Under the pieces are notes generated by a model, which searched no databases, was not told where the DNA came from, and saw only the letters and a program-made list of their open reading frames with translations. Shown here piece after piece: positions 28,519 through 57,713 of a stretch of 64,000 bases of DNA. Made by a program: the position numbers and the translations under genes. Within the stretch, counting starts at the first letter, position 1. Every line of letters starts with the position of its first letter. The DNA comes from Thermoanaerobaculia bacterium (GTDB lineage Bacteria > Acidobacteriota > Thermoanaerobaculia > Multivoradales > JAIOJS01): assembly GCA_030429235.1 (NCBI GenBank), contig JAUIDB010000002.1:176769-240768 (forward strand), read 5' to 3'.

Positions 28519-29457
28519 ATGATGACGAACAGCACGATGACGAACAGCACGATGACGGACGACAGGAGGACCGACCGGACGGAGAACCCCCAGAGCAAGG
28601 CCTGGCAGACCGTACGCAAGGGGCCCTCGCGGCACTGGGTCGGTGACGGCTTCCCGGTGGCTTCGGTGCTCTCGCCCCAGCCGGGGCGTGACGGCGTCGA
28701 TCCGTTCCTGCTCATGGACCATGCGGGCCCCGCGGAATTCGCGCCGGCCGAGCGACCGCGCGGGGTCGATTCCCATCCCCACCGCGGCTTCGAGACGGTG
28801 ACGGTCGTGTTCCAGGGCGAACTGGAGCACCGCGACTCCGCTGGCAACTCCGGAAGCATCGCAGCGGGTGACGTGCAGTGGATGACCGCCGGCTCGGGGG
28901 TGCTCCACGAAGAGAAACACTCGGCGGAGTTCACCCGGCAGGGTGGGGTGCTGGAGATGGTGCAGCTGTGGGTCAACCTGCCGGCCCGCGACAAGATGAC
29001 GAGCCCCCGCTACCAGGAGCTGCTGGCCGACGATATCCCGACCGTGCCGCTGGGCGACGGAGCCGGCCAGATCCGGCTCATCGCCGGTGCCTTCGGTGAG
29101 GTCCAGGGCGCGGCCACCACCGTCACTCCGGTGACGCTCTGGGACGTGCGGCTGGCCGCGGGGGGCCGGGCGTCGCTACCCTCGCCGGAGGGTCACAGCG
29201 CTGCCGTCTACGTGCGTCAGGGGGAACTGCGGCTGGCCGCGGACTCCACGGTGGCCGCCGGCGAGCTGGCGATCTTCGAACGCTCCGGTTCGCAGGTCGA
29301 CCTCGAGGCGCTCGCCGACAGTGAGTTCCTCTTCCTGGGAGGGGAGCCGCTCGACGAACCGATCGCCGCCCATGGACCGTTCGTGATGAACACCCGCCAG
29401 GAGATCGTGCAGGCGATCGACGACCTGCGAGCGGGTCGCTTCGGGACGCTCGGCTGA
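28519..29457 (+). CDS. Pirin-family protein (bicupin).
   Basis: HPHRGFETVTVVFQGELEHRDSAGN motif. RBS AAGGAG upstream. The N-terminus has a tandem MTNSTMTNSTMT repeat. Confidence 0.85.
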   Translation: MMTNSTMTNSTMTDDRRTDRTENPQSKAWQTVRKGPSRHWVGDGFPVASVLSPQPGRDGVDPFLLMDHAGPAEFAPAERPRGVDSHPHRGFETVTVVFQGELEHRDSAGNSGSIAAGDVQWMTAGSGVLHEEKHSAEFTRQGGVLEMVQLWVNLPARDKMTSPRYQELLADDIPTVPLGDGAGQIRLIAGAFGEVQGAATTVTPVTLWDVRLAAGGRASLPSPEGHSAAVYVRQGELRLAADSTVAAGELAIFERSGSQVDLEALADSEFLFLGGEPLDEPIAAHGPFVMNTRQEIVQAIDDLRAGRFGTLG

Positions 29458-29526
29458 GTGCCGGGTCTCCCAGGCTGAGACACCCTGGAGCCCTGCGGGT
29501 CGGCGTCAGCCGCCCGTGGGGTTCGT

Positions 29527-30010
29527 TCAGCCGGCGGCGACGAGTCGCTCGGGCTCGGTGATTCCGAAGATCTGGGCGAGCACGTCGTAGCGCCGAGCCA
29601 ATCCCACGATCTGATCGCCCCGTACCACCGGCACGGTGTGGAGATGCCGGTCGCACATCAGGAGCGCGATCTCGGCCACGGTCAGATCCTCTTCGATGGT
29701 GACCACGCGACGGCACATCACCTCCCGGGCGGGCGTCGTGCCGAGGTCCTCGCGACCATCGAGATGGTCCGAGTTGACGAACTCGCCGAAGAGCGACGGC
29801 GCCTTCGCCCGCGAGTGTGGCAGCCCCTTCTTCTTCAGGAAGAGGTCGGCGTCCGTCACGATCCCGAGAAGACGTCCCTCTTCGACGATCGGCAGGGCGC
29901 GCATCTGGTAGGTGTGGAACAGGCGCATGAGTTCGGTGACCGGCGCCTCGGGGCCGGCAGCGACGAAGTCGCGGTACATGATCTCTCGGGCGGTAGTGTT
30001 GTGGGCCACG
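29527..30010 (-). CDS. CBS-domain pair protein.
   Basis: Two CBS motifs (VTDADLF...; HLHTVPVVRGDQIVGLARRYDVL). Likely GTG start with a GGGAGAG RBS. Confidence 0.65.
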
Positions 30011-30240
30011 GTACTCTCCCTATGCGCAACGGGGGCCTGACGGCGCGGCCCGAAGTGCGCTAGCTGTGATCTCCCTGAAACTCGTCTCGGACGGGGGCGT
30101 CCAAAGTGCCCTTGGGTGACTCCGGACGGCGAGATTGTACCACGCAGGCACAAGCTTCGACACCCCCAGATCCTCGGTCATGGCGCCGTCGGTCGAATAA
30201 ACTGCAAGGCCCAGCCGTACCCCACCCGAAAGGTCAACCG

Positions 30241-30969
30241 ATGCAGGAATTCTTCACTCTCCTCACCACGTTCCCGGTCGTACTGTTCAGCGCGATCATG
30301 GCGGTCGTCTTTCTCTACTGGATCCTGGTGATCCTGGGGACTCTGGACGTCGATCTCTTCGATCTCGACGGGGTGACCGAGGCGATCGATGGGGCGCTCG
30401 ACGGTGCCCTGGACGGTGCCATCGAGGGCGGCCTCGAGGCGGCGGACGGACTGGAGGGGGGAGCCGAGGGCGCCGGCGAGGGTACACCGTCTGGGCTGGC
30501 GGGTGTGATCCATGCCGTCGGGTTGCACGGCGTGCCGCTGACGATCTCGCTCAGCATTCTCTTCGGCCTCGCCTGGCTGTTGTCGATGCTCCTGATCGAG
30601 GGCGTACGCCTCAAGGCTCCCGAGTGGGTCGCCAACATCCCACTGCAGTTCGCGGTCCTCTTGGTGACGCTCACCGTGGCGGGCTTCTTGACGGCCCGCA
30701 TCATCCGTCCGCTGCGGCCGGCCTTTGCCACCGTCACCGCGCCCTCTCGGGGCTCGTTCACGGGGCGGGTGTGCACGGTGGTCAGCACCCGGGTGGATGG
30801 TGACTTCGGTCGGGCCGAGATCGACGACGGGGGCGCCGGGCTCCTGGTCGACGTGCGGTGCGCCGAAGAGAACACGCTGTCCCGGGGCGACTACGCCCTG
30901 GTCTACGACTACGACCGCGAGGCGGATGTCTTTCTCGTCAAACCGGCCGAGGATGGATTGTCGGCCTGA
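30241..30969 (+). CDS. NfeD/YqiJ-like membrane protein; flotillin partner with a C-terminal OB fold.
   Basis: N-terminal TM helices, an acidic Gly/Ala-rich linker and a C-terminal β-rich domain. Sits immediately upstream of the flotillin gene. Confidence 0.65.
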   Translation: MQEFFTLLTTFPVVLFSAIMAVVFLYWILVILGTLDVDLFDLDGVTEAIDGALDGALDGAIEGGLEAADGLEGGAEGAGEGTPSGLAGVIHAVGLHGVPLTISLSILFGLAWLLSMLLIEGVRLKAPEWVANIPLQFAVLLVTLTVAGFLTARIIRPLRPAFATVTAPSRGSFTGRVCTVVSTRVDGDFGRAEIDDGGAGLLVDVRCAEENTLSRGDYALVYDYDREADVFLVKPAEDGLSA

Positions 30970-31009
30970 ACGGCCGTAACTCCAGCAACTGAAAGGAATA
31001 GGGGAACAG

Positions 31010-32992
31010 ATGGGTAACCTAGGATTTATAGCGATCGTTGGGGTCGTAGTCGTCGTTGCGCTCGGGATCTTCGCCGCGGTGGCGGTCGCCAAGTTCTACC
31101 GCAAGGTGGAGCAGGGCAAGGCGTTGATCGTCAACAAGATGAAGAAGGACCCCGAGGTCACCTTCACCGGGGCAGTGGTGTTGCCGATCATCCACAAGGC
31201 GGAGGTGATGGACATCTCGGTCAAGACGATCGAGATCGACCGCCGCGGCAAAGAGGGCTTGATCTGTCAGGACAACATCCGGGCCGACATCAAGGTCACC
31301 TTCTTCGTCCGGGTCAACAAGACCCAGGAGGACGTGATCAAGGTAGCGCAGGCGATCGGCTGCGCCCGCGCCTCGGACCAGAAGACCCTCGAGGAGCTGT
31401 TCAGCGCCAAGTTCTCGGAGGCGCTGAAGACGGTCGGCAAGAAGCTCGACTTCGTCGATCTCTACACCAAGCGCAACGAGTTCCGCGACTGGATCGTCGA
31501 GATCATCGGGCGCGATCTCAACGGCTACGTCCTCGAGGACGCGGCGATCGACTTCCTCGAGCAGACCCCCCTCAGCTCGCTCGACGAGAGCAACATCCTC
31601 GATGCCCAGGGTATTCGGAAGATCACCGAGCTCACCACCATCGAGCACGTGCGGACCAACGAGTACACCAACAACGAGCGCAAACTGATCAAGAAGCAGG
31701 ACGTCGAGGCCGAGGAGGCGATCCTCGAACTCGAACGGCAGCGCGCCGATGCCGAAGCCAAGCAGCAGCGCGAGATCCAGACCATGAAGGCGCGCGAGCA
31801 GGCCGAGATCGACAAGGTGGCGGCGGAAGAGCGGCTGCGGTCCGAGACCGCACGCATCGCCGCCGACGAAGAGCTCGAGATCGCCGAAGAGAACCGCAAG
31901 CGGCAGGTCGAGGTGGCGGAGAAGAACCGCGAGCGGGTGGTCGCCATCGAGACCGAACGGGTGGAGAAGGCCCGAGCCCTCGAAGAGGTCGACCGAACCC
32001 GTGAAGTCGAACTGCAGCGCATCGAGATGGAGAAGCAGCTCGAGGAGGAGCGGCGGCTGATCGCCGAGGTCACGCGCGAGAAGATCGCGGTCGAGAAGAC
32101 GGTGGCCGAAGAGGAGGAGCGGATCAAGGAGCTGCGGGTGGTCGAAGAGGCACGCCGCACCAAGGAAGCGACCGTGATCGCGGCCGAAGCCGAGGCCGAA
32201 GAGGTCTTGATCAAGGACATCAAGGCGGCCGAGGCCTCCGAGGCAGCGTCGAAGTTCAAAGCCAAGGAGCGCCTGGTCCTGGCCGAGGCCGAACTGGAGG
32301 CCGCCGACAAGGAGGCCAAGGCCAAGATCCGGCTCGCCGAGGGAATCCAGGCCCACGAAGCCGCCTCCGGCCTGGCGCAGGTCCGAGTACAGGATGCCAG
32401 CGCTGCCGCCGTCGAGAAGGTCGGTTTGGCCGAAGCGCGGGTGGTGCGCGAGAAGGGCGAGGCGGAAGCGGAAGCGACACGCTTGGCGATGACGGCCGAA
32501 GCGGCCGGCATCACCGAGAAGGCCGAGGCGATGAAGCTCCTCGACGAGTCGACCCGCGACCACGAGGAGTACCGTCTGCACCTCGAGAAGGACCGCGAGG
32601 TCGAGCTGGAGGCGATCAACGCCCACCGGGCGGTGGCCGAACAGCAGGCGATGGTGCTGGCGGAGGCTCTCAAGAACGCCAACATCGACATCGTGGGCGG
32701 CGAGAGCGTCTTCTTCGACAAGATCGTCAACGCGATCTCGATGGGCAAGTCGGTCGACAGCTTCATGGGGCGTAGCGAGACGGCCCAGGCCCTGGTCGGC
32801 GACTACCTGAGCGGGCAGGCCAACCTGCCCGACGACATCAAGGAGGTCCTGTCCAATCCGGCGCTTTCCGCCGGGGACGTGCAGAATCTTGCCATCTCGA
32901 CCTTGCTCGGCAAGCTGGCCCTGTCGAGCGGCGCCGACAAGCGGGACAAGCTCGAGAAGCTGATCGAGTCGGCTCGCGAGCTGGGCCTCTGA
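31010..32992 (+). CDS. Flotillin/SPFH (band-7) family protein, YqiK-like.
   Basis: N-terminal TM, then an SPFH domain (LIVNKMKKDPEVTFTGAVVLPIIHKAEVMDISVKTIEID). Long EA-repeat coiled coil. Confidence 0.85.
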   Translation: MGNLGFIAIVGVVVVVALGIFAAVAVAKFYRKVEQGKALIVNKMKKDPEVTFTGAVVLPIIHKAEVMDISVKTIEIDRRGKEGLICQDNIRADIKVTFFVRVNKTQEDVIKVAQAIGCARASDQKTLEELFSAKFSEALKTVGKKLDFVDLYTKRNEFRDWIVEIIGRDLNGYVLEDAAIDFLEQTPLSSLDESNILDAQGIRKITELTTIEHVRTNEYTNNERKLIKKQDVEAEEAILELERQRADAEAKQQREIQTMKAREQAEIDKVAAEERLRSETARIAADEELEIAEENRKRQVEVAEKNRERVVAIETERVEKARALEEVDRTREVELQRIEMEKQLEEERRLIAEVTREKIAVEKTVAEEEERIKELRVVEEARRTKEATVIAAEAEAEEVLIKDIKAAEASEAASKFKAKERLVLAEAELEAADKEAKAKIRLAEGIQAHEAASGLAQVRVQDASAAAVEKVGLAEARVVREKGEAEAEATRLAMTAEAAGITEKAEAMKLLDESTRDHEEYRLHLEKDREVELEAINAHRAVAEQQAMVLAEALKNANIDIVGGESVFFDKIVNAISMGKSVDSFMGRSETAQALVGDYLSGQANLPDDIKEVLSNPALSAGDVQNLAISTLLGKLALSSGADKRDKLEKLIESARELGL

Positions 32993-33013
32993 TCTCGGTT
33001 CCCGCCGGTCGGG

Positions 33014-33043
33014 GTCCGGCCCAGCGCAGGCCGGGCCGGACCT
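33014..33043 (+). terminator. GC-rich 10-bp inverted repeat hairpin (ggtccggccc...gggccggacc) between the flotillin and giant genes. It has no U-tract, so it may be an attenuator or RNA-processing site rather than a terminator.
   Basis: A perfect 10-bp stem with a 10-nt loop, read directly from the sequence. Confidence 0.3.
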
Positions 33044-33083
33044 CCCATTCGTCTCGAACTCCCTCTGGAGGAACCCACTGCCG

Positions 33084-36000
33084 ATGACCGATGTCGCTCC
33101 CACCGCTTCCTACGATCTGCTCCTGGCCCGCTTGGCCGAGCAGGCCGAGGGACTGGCCGAACGAGCCGAGGCCCTCAATCGTCGCAGGATCGAACTCTTC
33201 GGGGGTACCGAGAGTGAGATCCTCGGCACCGAGCGGCTGCGCACGGTCAACAACTGTGTTCCCCGTGACATCGTCGCCCTCGGCCACCGGTTCCTCTTTG
33301 GCTACAACGTCTTTCTCGGACTTCGGCAGACCACCGACGTCGACGACGTCTTCGCGGTGCACTCCCTGGTGGAGGAAGAGGGACAGATGCGGTTGGTCGA
33401 GGTGCCAGCTTCGGAGACCGAGGATCTTTTGGGAGGCGCGGAGTTCCGGCGCGACTTCGGTGAGCTCTTCAAGTACTACAAGGAAGCCAGGCTTCTCCAG
33501 CTCCGCAAGGTCGATGGCAAGTTGCTGGCGGTGTTCCAGACCGGGCAGCTGGTGGGCGATATCAAGGTCCTGCGCTGGTCGGTGGCTCCGGACGGTACCG
33601 CCACCTACATCGACAACCGCGGGGAACGCGACCACGTGTTTCCCCCCAGCCACGACTTCGAGTGGATCCGAGCCACGCGCGAGAACTTCGTCCTGGGACG
33701 ACACCCCCACGTGTCGATTCTCGACGAGGTGTTCGTGGAGGCGGTCGGCGGAGACCTGACGGTCAAGGTCGAGAACAACACCGAAGACGGACTGGGAATC
33801 TACCGCGAACCGGTCGACGATCCGGACCAGGGGCTGGACGACGGCGAGATCCGCTACGCCAAGCTCGGAGGGCTGATCCTCATCGAGGTCCTCCCCTTCG
33901 GGGAGACCCAGCGGCGCTACCTGGTCTTCGATACCCGTTCGCAGAGGGTCGAACGGATCGACGCCATCGCCCACGCCTGCCAACAGCTGCCCGAGGACCA
34001 CGGCATCGTCTTCCCCGGGGGCTACTTCCTCCAGACCGGGGTCTCCAAGCAGTTCGACGGTGAGGTACAGGGTCTCGAGTTCAGTCGGTCGATTCGCTCG
34101 CCGAACGGGGAGGATGTGCTCTACGTCTTCCATCGACGCGACGAGGGACGGTACCTCCTGTTGCCCTACAACCTGATCCGGCGGCAGGTGGATAACCCCA
34201 TCCACTGCCACGGCTACAGCCTGTTCGGCGACGGCCGTCTCCTGGTGTTCCGCTCGACCAGCGAGGAGCCCACCCGGGTGCACCCGGTCCAACTCTGGCA
34301 GACCCCGTTCGTCAGCGCGGAGCACGCGGCGCAGCAACCGAGTTCGGGCAGCTACCTCGAGGGTGTCGGCAACGCCGATCTGGTGCGAGGCATCAGCGAA
34401 GCGCTGGGCATCCGCCGGGAAGCCACCGAGGGAGAGCCGTCGCGCCACACCTACGAAGACCTGGTGGCGCAGACCACGCGGATGCTCGATGCCTTTCCCT
34501 GGCTGGGGCACGACGAGGTCGCCCTGGCCCCGGCGCTGCAGGAGATTCGGACCACCGCCGGTCTGGTGCTCGACGAGTACGAGAAGGTGGTCGTGCTCCG
34601 CGACGAGGCCGCGCAGGCGGTGGCGGCGGCGAGCCACGAGCTCGAAGAGCTGGTTCGGCACCTCCAGCCCGATGCCTGGCACGAGGTGGAGCCGTTCGTC
34701 GACGCCCTCTCGTCCCTGCGGCGCCAGCGCGGACATCTGATTTCGCTCCGTGACCTGCGGTACGTCGATCTCGAGCGAGTGGACGAACTCGAAGCGGAGA
34801 CGGTCCGACGCTTCGAGGAATTGAGCGGCGATACCGTCGGCTACCTGCTGCAACCGGATGCCCTGAAGCCCTATCGCGAGCGGATTCTGGCCCTCGAGGA
34901 ACGGGTCGGGGCGGTCGAGAAGAACACCGAGCTGCGGGAGATCCTCACCGAGATCGAATCGACGGGCGACGCTCTGGAACTGCTCACCGAGGTGGTGGGC
35001 ACGCTGGAGATCGACGACGCCACCCAGCGTACCGATATCCTGGAGGCGATCTCCGAGGCCCTGGCGAGTCTCAATCGGACCCGAGCCCTGGCCACCGCCC
35101 GCCGCAAGGAACTCTTTCGCCACGAGGGAGTGGCCGAGTTCGCGGCCCAGTTCAAGGTGTTCGGGCAGACCGTAGCCAGTGCCCTGGCGCTCGCCGACAC
35201 TCCCGACAAGTGTGACGAGCAGCTGGCGCGCTCGATGATCCAGCTCGAAGAGTTGGAGGGCCGCTTCTCGGAACTCGACGAGTTCCTGGAACAGCTCGCC
35301 ATCAAGCGCGAGGAGGTGTACGAGGCCTTCGAGGCCCGTAAGCAGCAGTTGCGGGACGAGCGGGGGCGGCAAGCCGAGCACGTCAATCGGGCGGCAGATC
35401 GGATCCTGCAGGCCATGGTCCGGCGGGCCGGCAGTCTGGGGTCGATCGACGAACTCAACAGTTACTTCGCCGCCGATCCGATGGCGGTCAAGGTTCGCGA
35501 CCTGGTCGCACGGCTGCGGACGCTCGAAGAGCATGTTCGGGCCGACGAACTCGAGGCTCGCCTCAAGGCCAGCCGCGAGGAAGCGACGCGCTCCCTGCGC
35601 GACCGCCTCGACCTGTTCGAGGATGGAGCCGCGGTCCTCAAACTCGGCCGCCACCGGTTCGCCGTCAACACCCAGCCGCTAGAGCCTTCGCTGCTGCCTC
35701 GAGACGAGGGACTGGTATTCCATCTCGCGGGCACCGACTACTTCGATCCCGTGCCGGAGGGGATGCTCGACGCCGATTCCAGTCTCTGGCAGCAGACCCT
35801 GGTGTCCGAGACTCCCGACGTTTACCGGGGCGAGTACCTGGCGTCCGAGATCCTCGCCGCGGCCGGTTCCTCGGCGGGGGCGGCGACGCGCGAAGAGCTC
35901 CGCCGGGCTGCCCTGGACGACGGAGGGCTGCTCGAGCGGGTGCGGAAGTTCGCACTCGAGCGTTACGACGAGGGGTACGAACGGGGCGTGCACGACGCCG

Positions 36001-38582
36001 ACGCCGCGTTGATCCTCGAGAAGATCCTGGGTCTGGAAGAGACCGCCGATCTGTTGGCCTACGCCCCGTCGGTGCGGGCCGCGGCGCTGCTGTACTGGGC
36101 CTACGAAACGGACAGCAACCAGCGACGATCGTGGGTGCGCCAGGCCGAGAGCCTCGGGCGCCTGCGCCAGACCTTCGAGCGCGCTCCGGCCGCGCTGGCG
36201 TTCGAGCGCCAGTTGGCCACGAAGATCGCAGCGTTCCATCGCGACGTGGTGGGGCGAGAGCTGGACGAAGGTCTGTCGACATCGGGCGGTCGCTACCTCT
36301 TCGAGGAACTCGCCCGGGGTGGGCGCCGATTCGTCGTTTCCGGGCCGGCGGAGGCCCTGCGGAGTGCGCTCTGGTCCCATCTCGAGGCCGAAGACCTGGC
36401 GCGCGGGCTGCAAGAGGACCTGCGCAATCTGCGCGAGGACCTGGCGGCCAGTGTCCGTCTGGCGTCGGCCTGGGTCGAGGGGTTCGTGGCGCGCAGCGAC
36501 TCCTCTCCGGGAGAGGAAGCACCCTACGTCGACGAGGTGATCGCTCTGCTACTGGTCGAGGGGCGCCAGGAGGTCGAAGTCTCGAACGCCCTGACCGAGG
36601 TCGAAATCGAAGGACTGTTGGGACAACATCCCCGCATCGAGGGCGGCACGATGCCCTTGCGTCTGGCCGAGTTTCTGACCCGACTCGACCACTTCCGGTC
36701 CCACCAGGTACCGCAGTTCCGGGCCTACCTGGACGCTCGCCGCAAGGTGTTGCACGCCGAGCGCGATCGACTCCGCCTGGCCGAGCTGCAACCACGGGTG
36801 ATGACGTCGTTCGTCCGCAACCGCCTGATCGACGAGGTCTACCTTCCCCTCATCGGCAACAACCTCGCCAAGCAGATCGGTTCCCTGGGCGAGGGCAAAG
36901 TCTCGGATCGCTCGGGTCTGCTCCTGTTGGTCTCGCCTCCCGGCTACGGAAAGACCACCCTGATGGAGTATTTGGCCAGTCGGCTGGGACTCGTCTTCGT
37001 CAAGGTCAACGGTCCGGCCCTCGGCCACGCCGTGACTTCGCTCGACCCGGCCGAAGCGCCCAACGCCACGGCACGGCAGGAGGTCGAGCGGATCAACTTC
37101 GCCTTCGAGATGGGCAACAACGTGCTGCTCTACCTCGACGACATCCAGCACACCCATCCCGAGCTGCTGCAGAAGTTCATCAGTCTCTGCGACGCGCAGC
37201 GCCGCGTCGAAGGGGTCTGGAAGGGGCGGACGAGGACCTACGATCTGCGGGGTAAGCGCTTCGCGGTCTGCATGGCGGGCAATCCGTACACCGAGTCGGG
37301 AGAGCGGTTCCAGGTTCCCGACATGCTGGCGAACCGCGCCGATATCTACAACCTGGGGGACGTCCTCGAGGGCAAGGACGAGCTCTTTGCGTTGAGCTAC
37401 CTCGAGAATTCATTGACCGCGAACTCCGCCCTGGCCACGCTGGCCAGCCGCGGGCCCGAGGACGTGCTACCGCTGATCCAGATGGCGCAAGGCCGGGACA
37501 TCTCGCCGGATCAACTGACCCACAGCTACTCCGCGGTGGAACTCGAGGAGATTCAGTCGGTCCTGAGTCAGCTCCTCGTGGTGCAGGAGCTGCTGCTGGT
37601 GGTCAACCAGCAGTACATCGCCTCGGCGGCCCAGGACGACGCCTACCGCACCGAACCGGCCTTCCTGCTCCAGGGCAGCTACCGCAACATGGTCAAGATC
37701 GCGGCCCAGGTGGTGCCCGCCATGAACGCGGAAGAGCTGCAGTCGGTGATCACCGACCATTACGTGGGCGAAGCCCAGACGTTGACCAGCGGCGCGGAAG
37801 CGAACCTGCTCAAGCTGGCGGAGTTGCGGGGGCGATCGACGCCGGAGGAAGCGGCGCGCTGGCAGAGCATCCGGACCGAGTATCGTCGCCGCCAGCTGGT
37901 CGGGGGTTCCGACGACGACCCCACCACCCGGATCGTCGGTGGACTGAGTGCGCTCTCGGAGAGAGTCGGTGGCATCGGCAAGGCCCTCGTCGAAGCGCAG
38001 GAGCAGGCCCGAACCCAGGCTGGCGCGTCGGACTCCGAGGCGGAAGCAGCGCACCGAGCGTCTCTCCTGAAGACGGTCGAGAAGGTCGGCAGGTCGCTGG
38101 CGGCCCAGAAGAAGCAGCCGATCGCACTGACTCTGCCCACGGAGCTGGAAGAGCAGCTCCCTCGGCTGATCGCAGGGGTCGAGGCAGTGGCGGCAGGGGT
38201 CTCCGCCACCGCGGCCACGGCCGGTGGGGCTCGTTCGGAGACGAGCCAGGAACTCGGCCCGTACCTGGAGAAGCTCGAGTCGGTCCTCGGGCAGATGGCG
38301 GCCCACATCGCGGCGGCTCCCAGTCAGGTCGCCGGCACCCGCGTGGTGCAGACGCTCTCTCCGGGGGTCCACGACTTGATGCGAAAGCTGGTCGACTCGA
38401 TCTCCAAGGGACTGATCCCCAGCGTGCGGGGAGTGGAGAAAGAACTCGCCAAGCAGGGTGTCGAGCCGGGCAAGCGCCTGAGCGATCTGATGGATCGCTC
38501 GCTCAAGGATCTCGACCTGTTGCGCGATCTGGTGGAGGCCTTGAAGAAGATTGATACCGGTCGCCTCGAGACCTCGGACTAG
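33084..38582 (+). CDS. Giant 1832-aa protein with a MoxR/AAA_5-like AAA+ ATPase domain near residues ~1270-1450. The rest has no domain I recognise.
   Basis: RBS GGAGGAAC upstream. Walker A LLLVSPPGYGKTTLMEY, Walker B VLLYLDDIQ, and AVCMAGNPYTESGERFQVPDMLANRADIY typical of MoxR-like AAA+. One uninterrupted ORF. Confidence 0.7.
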   Translation: MTDVAPTASYDLLLARLAEQAEGLAERAEALNRRRIELFGGTESEILGTERLRTVNNCVPRDIVALGHRFLFGYNVFLGLRQTTDVDDVFAVHSLVEEEGQMRLVEVPASETEDLLGGAEFRRDFGELFKYYKEARLLQLRKVDGKLLAVFQTGQLVGDIKVLRWSVAPDGTATYIDNRGERDHVFPPSHDFEWIRATRENFVLGRHPHVSILDEVFVEAVGGDLTVKVENNTEDGLGIYREPVDDPDQGLDDGEIRYAKLGGLILIEVLPFGETQRRYLVFDTRSQRVERIDAIAHACQQLPEDHGIVFPGGYFLQTGVSKQFDGEVQGLEFSRSIRSPNGEDVLYVFHRRDEGRYLLLPYNLIRRQVDNPIHCHGYSLFGDGRLLVFRSTSEEPTRVHPVQLWQTPFVSAEHAAQQPSSGSYLEGVGNADLVRGISEALGIRREATEGEPSRHTYEDLVAQTTRMLDAFPWLGHDEVALAPALQEIRTTAGLVLDEYEKVVVLRDEAAQAVAAASHELEELVRHLQPDAWHEVEPFVDALSSLRRQRGHLISLRDLRYVDLERVDELEAETVRRFEELSGDTVGYLLQPDALKPYRERILALEERVGAVEKNTELREILTEIESTGDALELLTEVVGTLEIDDATQRTDILEAISEALASLNRTRALATARRKELFRHEGVAEFAAQFKVFGQTVASALALADTPDKCDEQLARSMIQLEELEGRFSELDEFLEQLAIKREEVYEAFEARKQQLRDERGRQAEHVNRAADRILQAMVRRAGSLGSIDELNSYFAADPMAVKVRDLVARLRTLEEHVRADELEARLKASREEATRSLRDRLDLFEDGAAVLKLGRHRFAVNTQPLEPSLLPRDEGLVFHLAGTDYFDPVPEGMLDADSSLWQQTLVSETPDVYRGEYLASEILAAAGSSAGAATREELRRAALDDGGLLERVRKFALERYDEGYERGVHDADAALILEKILGLEETADLLAYAPSVRAAALLYWAYETDSNQRRSWVRQAESLGRLRQTFERAPAALAFERQLATKIAAFHRDVVGRELDEGLSTSGGRYLFEELARGGRRFVVSGPAEALRSALWSHLEAEDLARGLQEDLRNLREDLAASVRLASAWVEGFVARSDSSPGEEAPYVDEVIALLLVEGRQEVEVSNALTEVEIEGLLGQHPRIEGGTMPLRLAEFLTRLDHFRSHQVPQFRAYLDARRKVLHAERDRLRLAELQPRVMTSFVRNRLIDEVYLPLIGNNLAKQIGSLGEGKVSDRSGLLLLVSPPGYGKTTLMEYLASRLGLVFVKVNGPALGHAVTSLDPAEAPNATARQEVERINFAFEMGNNVLLYLDDIQHTHPELLQKFISLCDAQRRVEGVWKGRTRTYDLRGKRFAVCMAGNPYTESGERFQVPDMLANRADIYNLGDVLEGKDELFALSYLENSLTANSALATLASRGPEDVLPLIQMAQGRDISPDQLTHSYSAVELEEIQSVLSQLLVVQELLLVVNQQYIASAAQDDAYRTEPAFLLQGSYRNMVKIAAQVVPAMNAEELQSVITDHYVGEAQTLTSGAEANLLKLAELRGRSTPEEAARWQSIRTEYRRRQLVGGSDDDPTTRIVGGLSALSERVGGIGKALVEAQEQARTQAGASDSEAEAAHRASLLKTVEKVGRSLAAQKKQPIALTLPTELEEQLPRLIAGVEAVAAGVSATAATAGGARSETSQELGPYLEKLESVLGQMAAHIAAAPSQVAGTRVVQTLSPGVHDLMRKLVDSISKGLIPSVRGVEKELAKQGVEPGKRLSDLMDRSLKDLDLLRDLVEALKKIDTGRLETSD

Positions 38583-38670
38583 TCCCCTTCGGACCGGCTT
38601 CCCGACCCGACCGGAGAGGAACCGAACGGTTCAGGTACAATCCGCCAGAATTTTCTCTGGAGGGATAGCG

Positions 38671-39198
38671 ATGCTGCGATCTGTCAAGCGTACTCCGGGC
38701 CTGTGGCTAGGCCTTCTTCTCTGGTGCCTTCCTCTAGGCGCTCAGCCTCCGGCCGAGACCTGTGGTGTTGGCGATTCCCTGGGCGGAACCGACATGTTGC
38801 CCTTCCTCGGATCGCTGAACGTCACCGGCGACGACTTCACGATGACGGGTACCGGGTGCACCGAGCAGGGAGAGGACCACGTGACCTGTCTGACCCCGGC
38901 CAATTCCTGCACCGTCAACGCGACCTGCCGCGACGGTTTCTCGAAACCCGAGACTTCGGGGCTGCAGGTGGCGGTCAATGCCTTCCAGGGTTCTTGTAGC
39001 ACCTCTCCGGCGAGCTGTCTGGATAGCGACGGCGGAACCGGGTCGGGGACCATCAGCGGACTCGCGCTCACCGCCGGCGTGACCTACTGTTTCGTCTGCG
39101 AAGCGGGGACGGGGCTGGATCTGGAACTCGAGATCAACGCCGTGGCCAGCAGCTGTGGCGCTCTTCCGGTGGAACTCGAGACCTACTCCGTCGACTGA
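38671..39198 (+). CDS. Small secreted Cys-rich hypothetical protein.
   Basis: Signal peptide MLRSVKRTPGLWLGLLLWCLPLGAQP with RBS GGAGGGA. About 14 Cys residues. Confidence 0.5.
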   Translation: MLRSVKRTPGLWLGLLLWCLPLGAQPPAETCGVGDSLGGTDMLPFLGSLNVTGDDFTMTGTGCTEQGEDHVTCLTPANSCTVNATCRDGFSKPETSGLQVAVNAFQGSCSTSPASCLDSDGGTGSGTISGLALTAGVTYCFVCEAGTGLDLELEINAVASSCGALPVELETYSVD

Positions 39199-39214
39199 TC
39201 GACCCGGTCGCGCG

Positions 39215-40153
39215 TCACCAGTTCGTCGAGTCGCCGCTCTCGAAACCATCGGCGAACAGCAAGTCGCCGTCCGCCGCGGCGAAGAGCACCGCGTTGACCA
39301 GGATCTGAAAGTTCGGTCCGCCGGGACCGAGAGCGTGGGGTTCGTGCTCGCCCGGTTGGTACATCAGCACGATGCCATCCCACTCGGGGCGCCGCTGCAC
39401 GTAGCCCAGGAGGTGGGTGCCAGAGTCGTAGTCGCTGGCGAACAGGGGTTCGATCAGACCGCCGCCCGGGAGCAGGTCGAGGTTCGGATACCGTTCGTCG
39501 GGAGTGTTGTTGAACATCGGGTAGTTGGCCAGGGGGATGCCGTTCGCCGGATCTTCGTACAGCACCGAGTCCCCGTAGGCGACTCCGTAGGCAGCGACGA
39601 AGTGCTGCGGCGCGACGGCGATGACGTTCTGCCCTTCGACGGTGTTCCAGGGCACGGCTCCGGTGGCCTCGGCCCCGAGCAAAGCTTGCATCGCCTCCTT
39701 GCCCGCCGTGCGGTAGATCCCGTGGTGGAAGGAGAGGACGCTGCCTCCGTCCGTCAGGAACTGATCGACCGCGGCCACGAAGTCCGCCTGCCGCTGGGCC
39801 GCGTCGGCGCCGTTGGGGATTCGGTGGGCGAAGTAGATCAGCACGTCGTAGGCCAGAGGGTCTCCCGGGGGAAGTTCCAGCCAGGCGGTGGCGAGTTCCA
39901 GGCTGTCAGTCGGGATCTCCAACACGGGGTCGGGCCCGGCGAGCTGGAGCCCGCTCAAGGCGAGGAGGGCCGTCGAGATCTCGCCGGGCTGGGTCAAGTC
40001 CGCCGGAGGCAGCCCGTGGGGGTTGACCTCGTCGCTCACGATCAGGATCCGCAGAGGGGCGTGCGGGGCGACCGTCTGAGCACCGAGTGGTGCGACCGAG
40101 CTCGAGACGATCAAGAAGGCCGAAGCCAGGAAAGCAGCCGAGAAGTGCGCCAT
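39215..40153 (-). CDS. Secreted ThuA-like (class-I glutamine-amidotransferase-like) protein carrying the C-terminal DGFESGDSTNW tail.
   Basis: Signal peptide MAHFSAAFLASAFLIVSSSVAPLGAQ. C-terminus reads ...GDLLFADGFESGDSTNW*. Confidence 0.55.
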   Translation of the reverse strand: MAHFSAAFLASAFLIVSSSVAPLGAQTVAPHAPLRILIVSDEVNPHGLPPADLTQPGEISTALLALSGLQLAGPDPVLEIPTDSLELATAWLELPPGDPLAYDVLIYFAHRIPNGADAAQRQADFVAAVDQFLTDGGSVLSFHHGIYRTAGKEAMQALLGAEATGAVPWNTVEGQNVIAVAPQHFVAAYGVAYGDSVLYEDPANGIPLANYPMFNNTPDERYPNLDLLPGGGLIEPLFASDYDSGTHLLGYVQRRPEWDGIVLMYQPGEHEPHALGPGGPNFQILVNAVLFAAADGDLLFADGFESGDSTNW

Positions 40154-40268
40154 GCCGCACACTCTATCGCGCTACCCCCTGCGGCGGGGCGCCGGGGCTT
40201 TCGGGCGGTCGAGCTACAATCAGACGGTGTCGAAGTGCTTTTGATCGATCGACCTTCAAGGTCCTCAC

Positions 40269-41924
40269 ATGACGAACGCCGGTGCCGAGCCCCCTGAGTT
40301 TGGAGCGTCCCGAGCTGCCGACGGTGGGCTGCCGCAAGAGCAGCTGGAGGCGCTCTGGGAGATCGCGCGCCTCGCCAATGAGGATCTCGAACTCCAACCG
40401 ATGATGCAACGCATCACGGACGGCCTGGCCCGACGCTTCGGCTGGGACCTCGTGGCCCTGGTTCGCATTCTTCCCGAAGAGAATCGCTTCGAGTGCCAGG
40501 CGGTGACGACGCACCTCGATACCCCGGTACGGGCGGGGTACTCCCGTCCTCTGGGCAGCGGAGTGGTCGGTCGGGTGGCGTTGACCGGCGAGACGATCTG
40601 TCTCGACGACGTCAGCGAGTTCTCCGGTTTCGTGGAGACCCTGAATCGGACGGCATCGGAGATCTGCGTGCCGGTGCGTCACCAGGGTCGGGTGGTGGCG
40701 GTACTCAACGCCGAGAGTTCGCAGCCGGCCCATTTTGCGGGACAGCAGCTCCTGTTCGAAGCGGTGGCCGAGCAGATCTCGGGCGCCGTGGCCCGAGGGT
40801 TGCTCTACGAGCAGGTGCGCGCCCGGTCCGAGGTCCTCGAGACCCTGGCCGAGGTCTCTCGCCGGGTCGTAGACGGTCGGGCGCTGCAGGACCGACTCGA
40901 GGATCTGGTCGACTACCTTCGCTCTCGCTTCGAACTACTGCTGGCCGCGGTGATGGTCTCGGACGACGAGGGCCAGTATTGGCAGGAACGTGCGATCTCC
41001 ATGATTCCGAGGGTGCCGATCCATCGTCGACAGTGGCCGATCGGCGCCGGCATCGTCGGTCGGGCCGTGACCCAGGGACGGACGGTGGTGGTCGAGGATG
41101 TGCGGGAGGATCCCGAGTACATCGCCCTCAACGACGAGACCCGCGCCGAGGTCGTCGTGCCGCTGAAGTTCGGCGGGCGCGTGTTGGGCGCCCTCAACGT
41201 CGAGATGGGGGACGCAACCCATCTGTCGGAGGCCAGTATCGGCACCTTCGAGGCGATCGCCAACCAGGTCGCCGGCGCGATCGAACTCGCGGTTTCGAAT
41301 CGGCGTTTGAGCGAGAAGGAACGCCAGCTGGCCGACGCCAACCGAGAGCTCAGTCTGGTCAACGAGGAACTCAGTCGGCTGGCCGGTGTCGACGAACTGA
41401 CCAGCCTGGCCAATCGCCGGCGTCTGGACCGCTGCCTCGCCGACGAATCCCGCCGAGCCCAGCGGCACGGCGAGGTGTTGACGCTGGCCCTGCTCGATGT
41501 CGACTTCTTCAAGGCGTTCAACGACACCTACGGCCACCCCGCGGGTGACGAGTGTCTGAGGAGGGTCGCCTCCTGCTTGCGATCCCACGCCGTCCGCGCC
41601 GGGGAACTCGTGGCCCGCTACGGCGGCGAGGAGTTCGCCTTCGTCATGCCCCGTCTTCCGCTCGAGGAAGCGGAGGCCTTCATCGACCGCACCCGGCGAG
41701 CGGTGACCGAACTGGAGATCCCTCACGCCAGTTCGACGGTGTCGGAGTTCGTGACCCTGAGTGCCGGCGTGGCCTCGCTCAGGCCCGCCGAGGACAACGA
41801 GGTCAGCGACCTCCTCGCGCGGGCCGATCGGGCGCTGTACCAGGCGAAGGAGAGTGGGCGCAACCGCACCTGTCGGTGGACGCCTCAGCTCACGGAACCG
41901 CGAGCTACCGAGCCTGAGACTTGA
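40269..41924 (+). CDS. GAF-GAF-GGDEF diguanylate cyclase.
   Basis: Two GAF-like regions, then GGDEF (RYGGEEFAFVM; ...ALYQAKESGRNR). Confidence 0.85.
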   Translation: MTNAGAEPPEFGASRAADGGLPQEQLEALWEIARLANEDLELQPMMQRITDGLARRFGWDLVALVRILPEENRFECQAVTTHLDTPVRAGYSRPLGSGVVGRVALTGETICLDDVSEFSGFVETLNRTASEICVPVRHQGRVVAVLNAESSQPAHFAGQQLLFEAVAEQISGAVARGLLYEQVRARSEVLETLAEVSRRVVDGRALQDRLEDLVDYLRSRFELLLAAVMVSDDEGQYWQERAISMIPRVPIHRRQWPIGAGIVGRAVTQGRTVVVEDVREDPEYIALNDETRAEVVVPLKFGGRVLGALNVEMGDATHLSEASIGTFEAIANQVAGAIELAVSNRRLSEKERQLADANRELSLVNEELSRLAGVDELTSLANRRRLDRCLADESRRAQRHGEVLTLALLDVDFFKAFNDTYGHPAGDECLRRVASCLRSHAVRAGELVARYGGEEFAFVMPRLPLEEAEAFIDRTRRAVTELEIPHASSTVSEFVTLSAGVASLRPAEDNEVSDLLARADRALYQAKESGRNRTCRWTPQLTEPRATEPET

Positions 41925-57536: not shown

Positions 57537-57713
57537 AGCTGGCGAGGCCTCAGGCAGAGCTGGCGAGGCTTCAGCCGTTTCGCAGGGATCGATCGACTTT
57601 CCCGAGACCTCAGCCGTTTCGCGGGGTTCGATCCCGTGCCTCCATCACGAACGGCTCGCGGAGCGGACTCCTGCTATCCTCCGCGGCGTCGGAACCAAAC
57701 CAGACGATCCACG

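What the first reader, a model, noticed from the sequence alone, without database searches (positions are those of the whole stretch)
30241..38582. Giant 1832-aa MoxR-like AAA+ protein immediately downstream of an NfeD-flotillin pair
A YqiJ-like NfeD protein and a flotillin (SPFH) gene are followed by a single 5.5-kb ORF, with a stable hairpin at 33014..33043 in the 92-nt gap.

The only domain I recognise in the big ORF is a MoxR/AAA_5-type ATPase near its C-terminal third (Walker A SPPGYGKTT; AVCMAGNPYTESGERFQVPDMLANR). The N-terminal ~1250 aa are large and look unannotated.

A flotillin-microdomain-associated mega-ATPase would be a new functional link. The size and AAA+ content also resemble components of defence or membrane-remodelling systems.
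Basis: partly seen in the sequence, partly recalled or inferred. Interest (0 to 1): 0.6.

Follow-up and report, generated by a model that had tools for sequence, protein, structure and literature searches.

The report
Flotillin operon with giant AAA+ ATPase
This is a real three-gene membrane operon (small YqiJ/NfeD-like membrane protein, flotillin, 1832-residue AAA+ ATPase) that is conserved across many bacterial phyla. The gene link is already published and matches the Pseudomonas aeruginosa bac envelope-stress operon, so it is a new member of a known but mechanistically unsolved system.

Summary
ORFs 30241-30969 (242 aa), 31010-32992 (660 aa) and 33084-38582 (1832 aa) lie on one strand. A GC-rich hairpin at 33013-33042 sits in the 91-nt gap before the big gene.

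The big protein is not unannotated. It matches Pfam DUF3686 (E 7.5e-201), DUF7902 and a weak AAA/AAA_5 domain. Structure prediction gives an N-terminal propeller-like beta domain, a long helical region, and an AAA+ core closest to the MoxR ATPases NorQ and CbbQ.

In 78 of 80 related loci from five or more phyla, a flotillin gene lies upstream on the same strand. It is directly adjacent in 77, and the other two loci lack upstream sequence. The YqiJ-like gene was detected in 69.

In Gammaproteobacteria the trio is extended by DUF2170 and PspA genes upstream and by PLD or rhomboid genes downstream. Ravi et al. 2024 (PMC11237479) described exactly this association. Primer mapping equates it with P. 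aeruginosa bacABCDEF (PMC10948618). PA3728-PA3732 are induced by phage infection (PMC12041424).

The best reading is a Psp-related envelope-stress module. In it the ATPase would remodel flotillin/NfeD assemblies or their clients. That mechanism is inferred, not shown. Defence and DNA-repair readings are not supported.

The parts
30241..30969 (+). YqiJ/YuaF-type (short NfeD-like) membrane protein, 242 aa. It has an N-terminal TM segment, an acidic Gly/Asp/Glu-rich linker, 2-3 further TM segments and a C-terminal beta-rich soluble domain of about 70 aa.
   Evidence: ORF. The same product is called independently. TM segments. Orthologues lie directly upstream of flotillin in 69 of 80 loci. Alignment. 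Family assignment is weak: 3 of 25 orthologues hit YqiJ_N and 1 hits NfeD, and the window protein has no direct Pfam or PDB hit.
31010..32992 (+). Flotillin-type SPFH protein, 660 aa. It has an N-terminal TM anchor (residues 1-31), an SPFH/Band_7 domain (residues 32-175, nt 31103-31534), a long Glu/Ala/Lys/Arg-rich coiled coil and a conserved C-terminal region.
   Evidence: Band_7, 45.5 bits; one TM segment; 62% E+A+K+R in residues 230-520. Homologues lie upstream of the ATPase gene on the same strand in 78 of 80 loci.
33013..33042 (+). GC-rich stem-loop 21 nt after the flotillin stop codon, with no clear U-tract. It is a candidate leaky terminator, attenuator or 3' stabiliser inside the operon.
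   Evidence: z -5.1, 0 of 20 shuffles as stable. In 25 of 62 related loci with a gap of 45-500 nt, the best hairpin beats all 20 shuffles. In lower-GC lineages it is followed by a T-run (L050, L064, L066, L069).
33067..33072 (+). Shine-Dalgarno-like GGAGGA, 11 nt upstream of the ATG of the giant gene.
33084..38582 (+). Giant soluble AAA+ ATPase, 1832 aa, of the DUF3686/DUF7902/AAA family. Databases name it 'DNA repair ATPase' or 'AAA family ATPase'. It is the orthologue of P. aeruginosa BacE (PA14_16190, PA3728).
   Evidence: more than 5800 homologues; no TM segment; primer mapping to bacD-bacE.
33153..34496 (+). DUF3686 region (residues 24-471). It comprises an N-terminal helix (10-39), a beta domain of about 26 strands (45-406) that resembles beta-propellers, and the start of a helical bundle.
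34353..35633 (+). Long helical/coiled-coil region (residues about 424-850), including DUF7902 (residues 592-676, nt 34857-35111).
   Evidence: composition; helices 424-519. A weak LmuB-like coiled-coil hit probably explains the 'DNA repair ATPase' name (inference).
35631..36803 (+). Middle region (residues about 850-1240). It has a small beta domain (850-895, GRHRFAVNTQP) and a helical domain with the conserved motif RYDEGYERGVHDADAALILEK (960-980). It matches no known family.
   Evidence: AF2 model with pLDDT 86.1. Invariant columns. Motif positions.
36909..37343 (+). AAA+ core (residues 1276-1420). Features: Walker A GYGKTT (1287-1292, nt 36942-36959); Walker B LYLDD (1349-1353, nt 37128-37142; DD instead of DE); a pre-sensor-1 beta-hairpin (about 1374-1387); the sensor-1 strand MAGN (N1400); a candidate arginine finger, R1418.
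   Evidence: Pfam AAA, AAA_5 and AAA_22 at about 28 bits. These residues are invariant in 16 and 60 homologues. Model. Foldseek best matches are NorQ and CbbQ2 (MoxR), then RuvB and MCM.
38001..38579 (+). Variable, low-complexity C-terminal tail (residues about 1640-1832) ending in a conserved helix. Actinobacterial orthologues (about 1600-1680 aa) lack it.
   Evidence: lengths and hit extents.
38697..38714 (+). Terminator-like hairpin 115 nt after the ATPase stop codon; a possible end of the operon.
   Evidence: This is a pattern match only, and the number of such sites in the region is no higher than in shuffles.

Best explanation
The three genes form one conserved operon that encodes a membrane-maintenance module related to the phage-shock (Psp) response. 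Two membrane proteins build a flotillin (SPFH) scaffold on the cytoplasmic face of the inner membrane. These are the flotillin itself and its small YqiJ/NfeD-type partner.

The 1832-residue protein is soluble. It carries a MoxR-like AAA+ motor at the end of a long helical arm, with a propeller-like N-terminal head.

I propose the following mechanism. The protein oligomerises through the AAA+ ring. It docks on the flotillin/NfeD assembly through the propeller and coiled-coil part. It then uses ATP hydrolysis to assemble, disassemble or remodel the flotillin scaffold, and PspA polymers where those are encoded alongside, or to act on client proteins held in it during envelope stress. This would resemble FtsH inside HflK/C cages, or Vps4 acting on ESCRT-III.

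The hairpin just after the flotillin stop codon most likely acts as a leaky terminator or RNA stabiliser. It would let the scaffold be made in excess over the motor.

Shown here: the gene content, the conserved order, the domain folds, the conserved ATPase motifs, and the association with Psp genes in Gammaproteobacteria. From the literature: co-transcription and stress induction in P. aeruginosa. Inferred: physical docking, the substrate, and the role of the hairpin.
For: Conserved order and strand:
- A flotillin homologue lies upstream of the ATPase gene on the same strand in 78 of 80 loci from Myxococcota, Actinomycetota, Gammaproteobacteria, Planctomycetota and Acidobacteriota. It is directly adjacent in 77; in L032 it lies 6.5 kb upstream.
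- The YqiJ-like gene is found in 69 of 80.
- Neighbouring genes outside the trio are not conserved across phyla.
- Distance matrices of flotillin and ATPase correlate at r=0.94.
- In many actinobacterial loci the first possible ATPase start overlaps the flotillin stop.

Extended forms:
- In Gammaproteobacteria the trio is preceded by DUF2170 and a PspA-like gene and followed by a PLD or rhomboid gene.
- On plasmid pQBR103 it follows yjfKLMC-like genes.

Literature:
- Ravi et al. 2024 describe the same operon in the context of PspA.
- bacA-F are co-transcribed, and BacB-F rise together in a bacA mutant.
- The PA14 RT-PCR primers map onto the flotillin 3' end and the giant-gene 5' end of the Pseudomonas loci. 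The implied amplicon of 541-576 bp fits the reported 557 bp.
- PA3728-PA3732 are up-regulated on phage infection.

ATPase:
- Walker A, Walker B, sensor 1 and R1418 are invariant.
- The fold is closest to the MoxR remodellers NorQ and CbbQ.
- The giant protein has no TM segment, whereas both partners do.

Hairpin.
Against: - No interaction between the ATPase and flotillin has been shown, here or in the papers read.
- Operon conservation and correlated distances also follow from shared inheritance alone.
- MoxR-type ATPases normally work with a VWA-domain partner, and none is present here.
- The Walker B motif is DD rather than DE, so catalytic competence is assumed.
- The window holds no DUF2170, PspA, PLD or rhomboid gene by tblastn. 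It also has no sigma-54 site upstream. The Psp link for this particular organism is therefore by analogy.
- The hairpin lacks a U-tract, and in the region scan terminator-like sites are not enriched.
- Single and multiple deletions of P. aeruginosa SPFH (paFlo) genes, which include paFlo3, gave no pronounced phenotypes (PMC13086221).
Confidence: 0.55

Rival explanations
1. The ATPase is a MoxR-type maturation chaperone for a specific client. It would not act on the scaffold itself. Instead it would use the flotillin platform only as a workplace to insert a cofactor into, or activate, another membrane complex. NorQ/NorD does this for nitric-oxide reductase and CbbQ/CbbO does it for Rubisco.
For: The best structural matches are NorQ and CbbQ2. 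There is an AAA_5 hit, and the sensor-1 'NP...G...P..L.NR' motif is typical of this clade (motif knowledge is mine). Flotillins are reported to stabilise unfolded clients (PMC11222466 abstract).
Against: No VWA/MIDAS partner and no conserved client gene lies next to the trio in any phylum. The only universally co-conserved genes are flotillin and the YqiJ-like gene.
Confidence: 0.22
2. The trio is an anti-phage defence system. A membrane sensor platform would be coupled to a large ATPase that triggers abortive infection or membrane sealing.
For: PA3728-PA3732 are induced in all phage-infected samples. The large AAA+/coiled-coil protein gives a weak LmuB-like hit. Copies occur on megaplasmids.
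Against: PADLOC hits are at noise level (E 2.6e-4 to 1.3e-3, short or coiled-coil stretches). The core has no nuclease, toxin or other effector domain. The flanks hold housekeeping-type genes, not defence islands. There are no phage-borne copies. Induction by phage is the classical behaviour of Psp envelope-stress systems.
Confidence: 0.08
3. It is a DNA repair ATPase, as the database name says. It would be an SMC/SbcC/RecN-like protein that happens to sit next to flotillin.
For: The Pfam description of DUF3686 ('ATPase involved in DNA repair') and the NCBI names. Long coiled coils are present.
Against: The nucleotide-binding domain is a single AAA+ fold at residues 1276-1420, not split ABC-type heads. 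No DNA-binding or nuclease domain was found. Linkage is to membrane proteins in 78 of 80 loci. No paper in the library links the family to DNA repair.
Confidence: 0.03
4. It is mainly a structural tether. The propeller and coiled-coil arm would link flotillin domains to another cellular structure, with the AAA+ domain acting only as a nucleotide-regulated switch.
For: About 1200 residues are non-catalytic, long and helical. The Walker B motif is DD.
Against: All catalytic AAA+ residues are invariant across phyla. That argues for a working motor.
Confidence: 0.07

Closest known systems
PspA-associated band-7/flotillin + YqiJ/YuaF + AAA+ ATPase operons described by Ravi et al. 2024 (mSystems, PMC11237479)
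   Same: [quoted passage not shown] The paper explicitly notes 'abbreviated operons' with only these genes, widely distributed. My 80 loci reproduce this.
   Different: The window has the abbreviated form. It lacks CesT/Tir (DUF2170), PspA and PLD genes. The paper gives no structure, no AAA+ clade and no mechanism for the ATPase.
Pseudomonas aeruginosa bacABCDEF operon (PA3732-PA3727 region; PA14_16140-16200; Wallart et al. 2024, PMC10948618)
   Same: BacC, BacD and BacE correspond to the YqiJ-like protein, the flotillin (PaFlo3, PMC13086221) and the giant ATPase. The published RT-PCR primers map to the matching places in the Pseudomonas loci. The genes are co-transcribed and co-regulated.
   Different: The Pseudomonas operon has BacA (DUF2170) and BacB (PspA) upstream, a sixth gene downstream and a proposed sigma-54 promoter. 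None of these is found in the window. The window protein is only about 48-50% identical to the Pseudomonas orthologues.
MoxR-family AAA+ ATPases (NorQ, CbbQ, RavA)
   Same: The fold of the ATPase core is the same (TM-score to target 0.55-0.63). A pre-sensor-1 hairpin is present, as is the sensor-1/arginine motif pattern.
   Different: MoxR proteins are about 250-500 aa, hit Pfam AAA_3 and work with a VWA-domain partner. This protein is 1832 aa with a unique 1250-aa N-terminal extension. It gives no AAA_3 hit, has no VWA partner and has a DD Walker B.
HflK/C-FtsH and prohibitin-m-AAA protease complexes (SPFH cage plus AAA+ machine)
   Same: An SPFH scaffold is genetically or functionally coupled to an AAA+ ATPase at the membrane (established knowledge; cited in PMC13086221).
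   Different: FtsH is membrane-anchored, belongs to the classical AAA clade and carries a protease domain. The protein here is soluble, MoxR-like and has no protease domain.
E. coli yqiJK and B. subtilis yuaF-floT operons (NfeD2-SPFH2, Hinderhofer et al. 2009, PMC2636767)
   Same: A two-gene core of a small NfeD-like TM protein followed by a flotillin.
   Different: Those operons have no giant ATPase gene as described in that paper.

Membership tests
DUF3686-DUF7902-AAA giant ATPase family ('DNA repair ATPase', BacE-like) | N-terminal DUF3686 (PF12458) domain | tested here: met
   E 7.5e-201, residues 24-471, full profile coverage.
DUF3686-DUF7902-AAA giant ATPase family ('DNA repair ATPase', BacE-like) | DUF7902 plus a C-terminal AAA+ module with the GYGKTTLM and MAGNPYTE motifs; total length about 1600-1900 aa | tested here: met
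   (these two peptides were the scan patterns).
DUF3686-DUF7902-AAA giant ATPase family ('DNA repair ATPase', BacE-like) | Encoded directly downstream of a flotillin gene and a YqiJ-like gene | tested here: met
   The window arrangement matches 78 of 80 (flotillin) and 69 of 80 (YqiJ-like) loci.
MoxR AAA+ family | AAA+ core of the pre-sensor-1 hairpin superclade with closest structural similarity to MoxR proteins | tested here: met
   Foldseek top hits are NorQ (9qh4) and CbbQ2 (6l1q), followed by RuvB and MCM. A hairpin at about 1374-1387 lies before the sensor-1 strand.
MoxR AAA+ family | Match to the MoxR sequence model (Pfam AAA_3) and a compact size of about 300-500 aa | tested here: not met
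   Only AAA, AAA_5, AAA_22 and RuvB_N matched, at about 16-29 bits; there was no AAA_3 hit. The protein is 1832 aa.
MoxR AAA+ family | Adjacent VWA/MIDAS-domain partner gene | tested here: not met
   No VWA hit in the protein or in its neighbours. None appears among the flanking gene clusters conserved across the 80 loci.
Flotillin / SPFH2 family | N-terminal membrane anchor plus SPFH (Band_7) domain | tested here: met
   TM segment at residues 1-31. Band_7 at 45.5 bits against a cut-off of 23.6, on residues 1-229.
Flotillin / SPFH2 family | Long Glu/Ala-rich coiled coil and a flotillin-type C-terminal region | tested here: inconclusive
   Composition is 62% E+A+K+R in residues 230-520, and the C-terminus is conserved across loci. 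No Pfam flotillin C-terminal model matched, and there was no PDB sequence hit.
NfeD / YqiJ-YuaF family | Sequence match to NfeD (PF01957) or to the YqiJ models | tested here: inconclusive
   The window protein has no hit. Of 25 orthologues, 3 hit YqiJ_N (best E 8.3e-5) and 1 hits NfeD (E 0.021). A profile search against PDB found nothing.
NfeD / YqiJ-YuaF family | Multi-TM N-terminal part, C-terminal small beta domain, and a gene directly upstream of an SPFH gene | tested here: met
   The OB fold of the C-terminal domain was not modelled.
Psp-linked six-gene operon (DUF2170-PspA-YqiJ-flotillin-ATPase-PLD; bacABCDEF) | DUF2170/CesT-Tir and PspA genes upstream; PLD gene downstream | tested here: not met
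   tblastn of the gammaproteobacterial DUF2170, PspA-like, PLD and rhomboid proteins found nothing in the 64-kb window. The neighbours are CBS, pirin, ADH and GGDEF genes. The window has the abbreviated form.
Known anti-phage defence systems (PADLOC) | Significant match of any of the three proteins to a defence-system model | tested here: not met
   Only LmuB (E 2.6e-4, coiled-coil region), mad8 and IetA (Walker A only) matched. The other two proteins gave nothing.
SMC/SbcC/RecN-type DNA repair ATPases | ABC-type ATPase head split between the N- and C-termini, separated by a coiled coil | tested here: not met
   There is a single Walker A, at residue 1287, inside a contiguous AAA+ fold. The N-terminus is a beta domain.

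The most novel reading that the evidence does not exclude
The giant protein is the dedicated AAA+ motor of bacterial flotillin assemblies, a counterpart of FtsH in HflK/C cages or of Vps4 on ESCRT-III. It would dock through a non-canonical propeller on a long coiled-coil arm and drive flotillin (and PspA) turnover during envelope stress. A leaky terminator hairpin after the flotillin gene, recurrent across phyla, would set the scaffold-to-motor ratio. That would give flotillin microdomains an energy-dependent remodelling cycle, which has not been shown in bacteria.
Probability: 0.35. Interest if true: 0.65.

Novelty: new member of a known kind. Interest (0 to 1): 0.3.

Why it matters
How bacterial flotillins work is still debated, and no energy-consuming partner specific to them has been characterised. 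This ATPase family is the obvious candidate. It is found in at least 571 species representatives and in more than 5800 protein clusters at 90% identity, and it is almost always fused into one operon with flotillin.

The gene link is already in the literature, and a tractable model exists in P. aeruginosa bacE/PA3728. The window therefore adds a further, acidobacterial-type example rather than a discovery.

What this analysis adds:
- the AAA+ clade (MoxR-like);
- the evidence that the N-terminal beta domain is only loosely propeller-like;
- the equation of BacE with this family;
- the recurrent hairpin or terminator between the flotillin and ATPase genes.

The database name 'DNA repair ATPase' is probably misleading and worth correcting.

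Tried and rejected
- PDB sequence searches found nothing useful. The full flotillin, its SPFH part and a 25-sequence profile of the YqiJ-like protein gave no hit. The giant protein hit only Walker A stretches of classical AAA proteins at E>=0.005.
- NCBIfam gave nothing beyond a RuvB Walker A match.
- A sigma-54 promoter like the one proposed for bacA was sought and not found upstream of 30241. The window has 35 matches at up to 2 mismatches against 43 expected, and none lies in the 87-nt upstream intergenic region 30154-30240.
- No sigma-70-like promoter was found in 29400-39400.
- DUF2170, PspA, PLD and rhomboid homologues were sought in the window by tblastn and not found. This is a weak test for divergent PspA.
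- The exact-sequence context look-up for P0001 was not on record.
- Literature searches for 'DUF3686', for 'flotillin' with 'DNA repair ATPase', and for 'flotillin' with 'MoxR' gave nothing relevant.
- The downstream ORFs 38551-39198 and 39155-40297 were considered as operon members and rejected. They have no Pfam hit and are conserved in 0 of 80 loci.
- The defence and DNA-repair readings were rejected for the reasons given under the rival explanations.

Full report
**Observation**

The window (about 66% G+C) carries three co-directional ORFs: 30241-30969 (242 aa), 31010-32992 (660 aa) and 33084-38582 (1832 aa). The public protein collection holds exactly these three products from a 267-kb NCBI contig, so an independent gene caller agrees on the boundaries.

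The flotillin-ATPase gap is 91 nt. It contains the stem GGTCCGGCC/GGCCGGACC at 33013-33042 and a GGAGGA ribosome-binding site 11 nt before the ATG. The hairpin is more stable than all 20 dinucleotide shuffles of the gap (z -5.1).

**What the three proteins are**

*Giant protein.* It matches Pfam DUF3686 over the whole model (residues 24-471, E 7.5e-201) and DUF7902 (592-676). It also matches AAA, AAA_5 and AAA_22 weakly at 1276-1404. The N-terminal 1250 aa are therefore catalogued, but only as domains of unknown function. It has no predicted TM segment.

*Middle protein.* It has one N-terminal TM segment. It matches Band_7/SPFH at 45.5 bits when the Glu/Ala-rich coiled coil is removed. The full-length protein gives no hit, which is a technical trap.

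*First protein.* It has 3-4 TM segments, an acidic linker and a C-terminal beta-rich domain. It has no direct Pfam or PDB match. Of 25 orthologues, 3 hit YqiJ_N and 1 hits NfeD. The YqiJ/NfeD label is therefore plausible but weakly supported by sequence.

**Structure**

A model of residues 850-1640 (pLDDT 86.1) shows a small beta domain, a helical domain and an AAA+ core. The best PDB matches to that core are the MoxR ATPases NorQ and CbbQ2 (TM-score to target 0.55-0.63), followed by RuvB, MCM, ClpA and Lon. A beta-hairpin at about 1374-1387 precedes the sensor-1 strand. Walker A (GYGKTT), Walker B (LYLDD), N1400 and R1418 are invariant in 16 and 60 homologues. The protein nevertheless fails MoxR family criteria: no AAA_3 hit, no VWA partner, and six times the usual size.

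**Distribution and synteny**

More than 5800 clusters at 90% identity match the full protein, nearly all with the same Pfam architecture. They are named 'DNA repair ATPase', 'AAA family ATPase' or 'MoxR-like ATPase'. The closest (72-73%) include a Thermoanaerobaculia MAG protein.

Among 1.84 billion 50%-identity representatives, only 754 carry the N-terminal domain. In full-length proteins it is at the N-terminus.

A scan of one genome per species found at least 571 species with the gene. I kept 80 loci, from Myxococcota, Actinomycetota, Gammaproteobacteria, Planctomycetota, Acidobacteriota and others.

In 78 of 80 loci a flotillin homologue lies upstream on the same strand. The two exceptions have fewer than 100 bp of upstream sequence, and in one locus (L032) about 6.5 kb intervenes. 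The YqiJ-like gene was detected in 69 of 80. None of the window's other neighbours is conserved with the trio (0-2 of 80). Pairwise distances of flotillin and ATPase correlate at r=0.94. This fits transfer as a unit but does not prove interaction.

The gene also occurs on 13 plasmid or chromid records and on no phage.

**Extended forms**

In 12-13 gammaproteobacterial loci two further genes precede the trio on the same strand: DUF2170 (E 6e-46) and a PspA-like protein. A PLD-like or rhomboid gene follows it. On plasmid pQBR103 the trio follows DUF2491, DUF350, DUF1190 and glutathionylspermidine-synthase genes. I recognise these as yjfKLMC-type (the naming is my own knowledge, supported).

**Literature**

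Ravi et al. 2024 (PMC11237479) describe exactly this. [quoted passage not shown] They also describe 'related abbreviated operons' without PspA that are more widely distributed. The window has the abbreviated form.

Wallart et al. 2024 (PMC10948618) show that P. aeruginosa bacABCDEF (PA14_16140-16200) is one transcript. They propose a sigma-54 promoter. BacB-F proteins rise 6- to 13-fold in a bacA mutant, and bac mutants affect biofilm, rhamnolipids and virulence.

Their RT-PCR primers map, with 0-3 mismatches, to the 3' end of the flotillin gene in my Pseudomonas loci. They map with 5-6 mismatches to the conserved N-terminal NNC motif region of the giant gene. The implied amplicons are 541-576 bp against the reported 557 bp. 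So BacD is the flotillin (PaFlo3 in PMC13086221) and BacE is the giant ATPase.

PA3728-PA3732 are up-regulated in all phage-infected samples (PMC12041424). PA3728 ('ATPase') is listed among genes mutated in three cystic-fibrosis adaptation studies (PMC8190622). No paper in the library mentions DUF3686. None gives a mechanism for the ATPase.

**The hairpin**

Among 62 related loci with a flotillin-ATPase spacing of 45-500 nt, 25 have a hairpin better than all 20 shuffles; about 3 would be expected by chance. It usually starts within about 20 nt of the flotillin stop. In lower-GC genomes it is followed by a T-run, like an intrinsic terminator (L050, L064, L066, L069). In high-GC genomes, as here, there is no clear T-run.

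Transcription reads through into bacE in Pseudomonas. I therefore read the hairpin as a leaky terminator or 3' stabiliser that lowers ATPase expression relative to the scaffold. This is inference.

**Mechanism**

The best-supported reading is a Psp-related envelope-stress module in which a soluble MoxR-like motor on a long arm acts on the flotillin/YqiJ-like assembly, or on clients held by it. The closest functional analogies are FtsH within HflK/C cages and Vps4 with ESCRT-III/PspA-type polymers. Docking, substrate and ATPase activity have not been tested.

Rival readings, with my confidence in each:
- client-specific MoxR chaperone: 0.22;
- defence system: 0.08;
- structural tether: 0.07;
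- DNA repair: 0.03.

**Verdict**

The finding is a new member of a published, experimentally touched but mechanistically unsolved system. Interest is modest (0.3). The open question it points to, what the flotillin-linked motor does, is worthwhile and is testable in P. aeruginosa.

Noticed in passing
L048:5851-6966, L055:15954-16658, L050:15207-15770 (and L056, L059, L060, L067, L069-L075): In Gammaproteobacteria the trio is preceded by DUF2170 and a PspA-like gene. It is followed by a PLD-like (PLDc_2, E 7e-33) or rhomboid (E 4e-19) gene on the same strand.
   Followed up: partly
L081 (pQBR103, NC_009444.1 86551-103335): On this 425-kb Pseudomonas plasmid the trio sits directly after DUF2491, DUF350, DUF1190 and glutathionylspermidine-synthase genes (yjfKLMC-like). 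This joins two PspA-associated gene sets in one string.
   Followed up: no
Proteins P0242, P0264, P0192: Two representative proteins are single ORFs in which a flotillin C-terminal part runs into the giant ATPase. In P0242, flotillin residues 508-644 are followed by the ATPase from residue 9. In P0264, flotillin residues 191-584 are followed by the ATPase from residue 213. P0192 has an N-terminal extension whose VFVIDSPGG motif I read (from memory, untested) as a ClpP/SppA-type protease like that of long NfeD proteins, followed by sequence that looks out of frame. These are either real fusions or gene-calling or assembly artefacts.
   Followed up: partly
window 37128-37142 (residues 1349-1353): The Walker B motif is LYLDD, invariant across the family, instead of the usual hhhhDE. 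The consequences for hydrolysis are unknown.
   Followed up: no
window 31010-32992: The full-length flotillin gives no Pfam hit at all, while its first 229 residues hit Band_7 at 45.5 bits. I infer that the Glu/Ala-rich coiled coil suppresses the match. An automatic annotation could miss this gene.
   Followed up: yes
L032:3548-9911: In one Myxococcales locus about 6.5 kb lies between the flotillin gene and the ATPase gene, instead of the usual 0-500 nt. The inserted content was not examined.
   Followed up: no
L009-L011, L015-L021 and other actinobacterial loci: Actinobacterial orthologues are about 1600-1680 aa and lack the C-terminal tail of about 190 aa. Their first possible start codon often overlaps the flotillin stop by 4 nt, which suggests translational coupling instead of a hairpin-containing gap.
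   Followed up: partly
window 13597-15678(-), 43069-46629(+), 50855-52507(+), 52474-54579(+), 57636-59039(+): The window is rich in large predicted peptidases: one trypsin-like, one S8 subtilase (1186 aa), two reprolysin-like M12 and one M28. They are unrelated to the operon.
   Followed up: no
window 38551-40297 and 40269-41924: Two ORFs downstream of the ATPase gene (215 and 380 aa) have no Pfam match and are not conserved with the operon. They are followed by a GAF-GAF-GGDEF diguanylate cyclase gene. A terminator-like hairpin at 38697-38714 lies inside the first ORF, which may therefore not be real.
   Followed up: no
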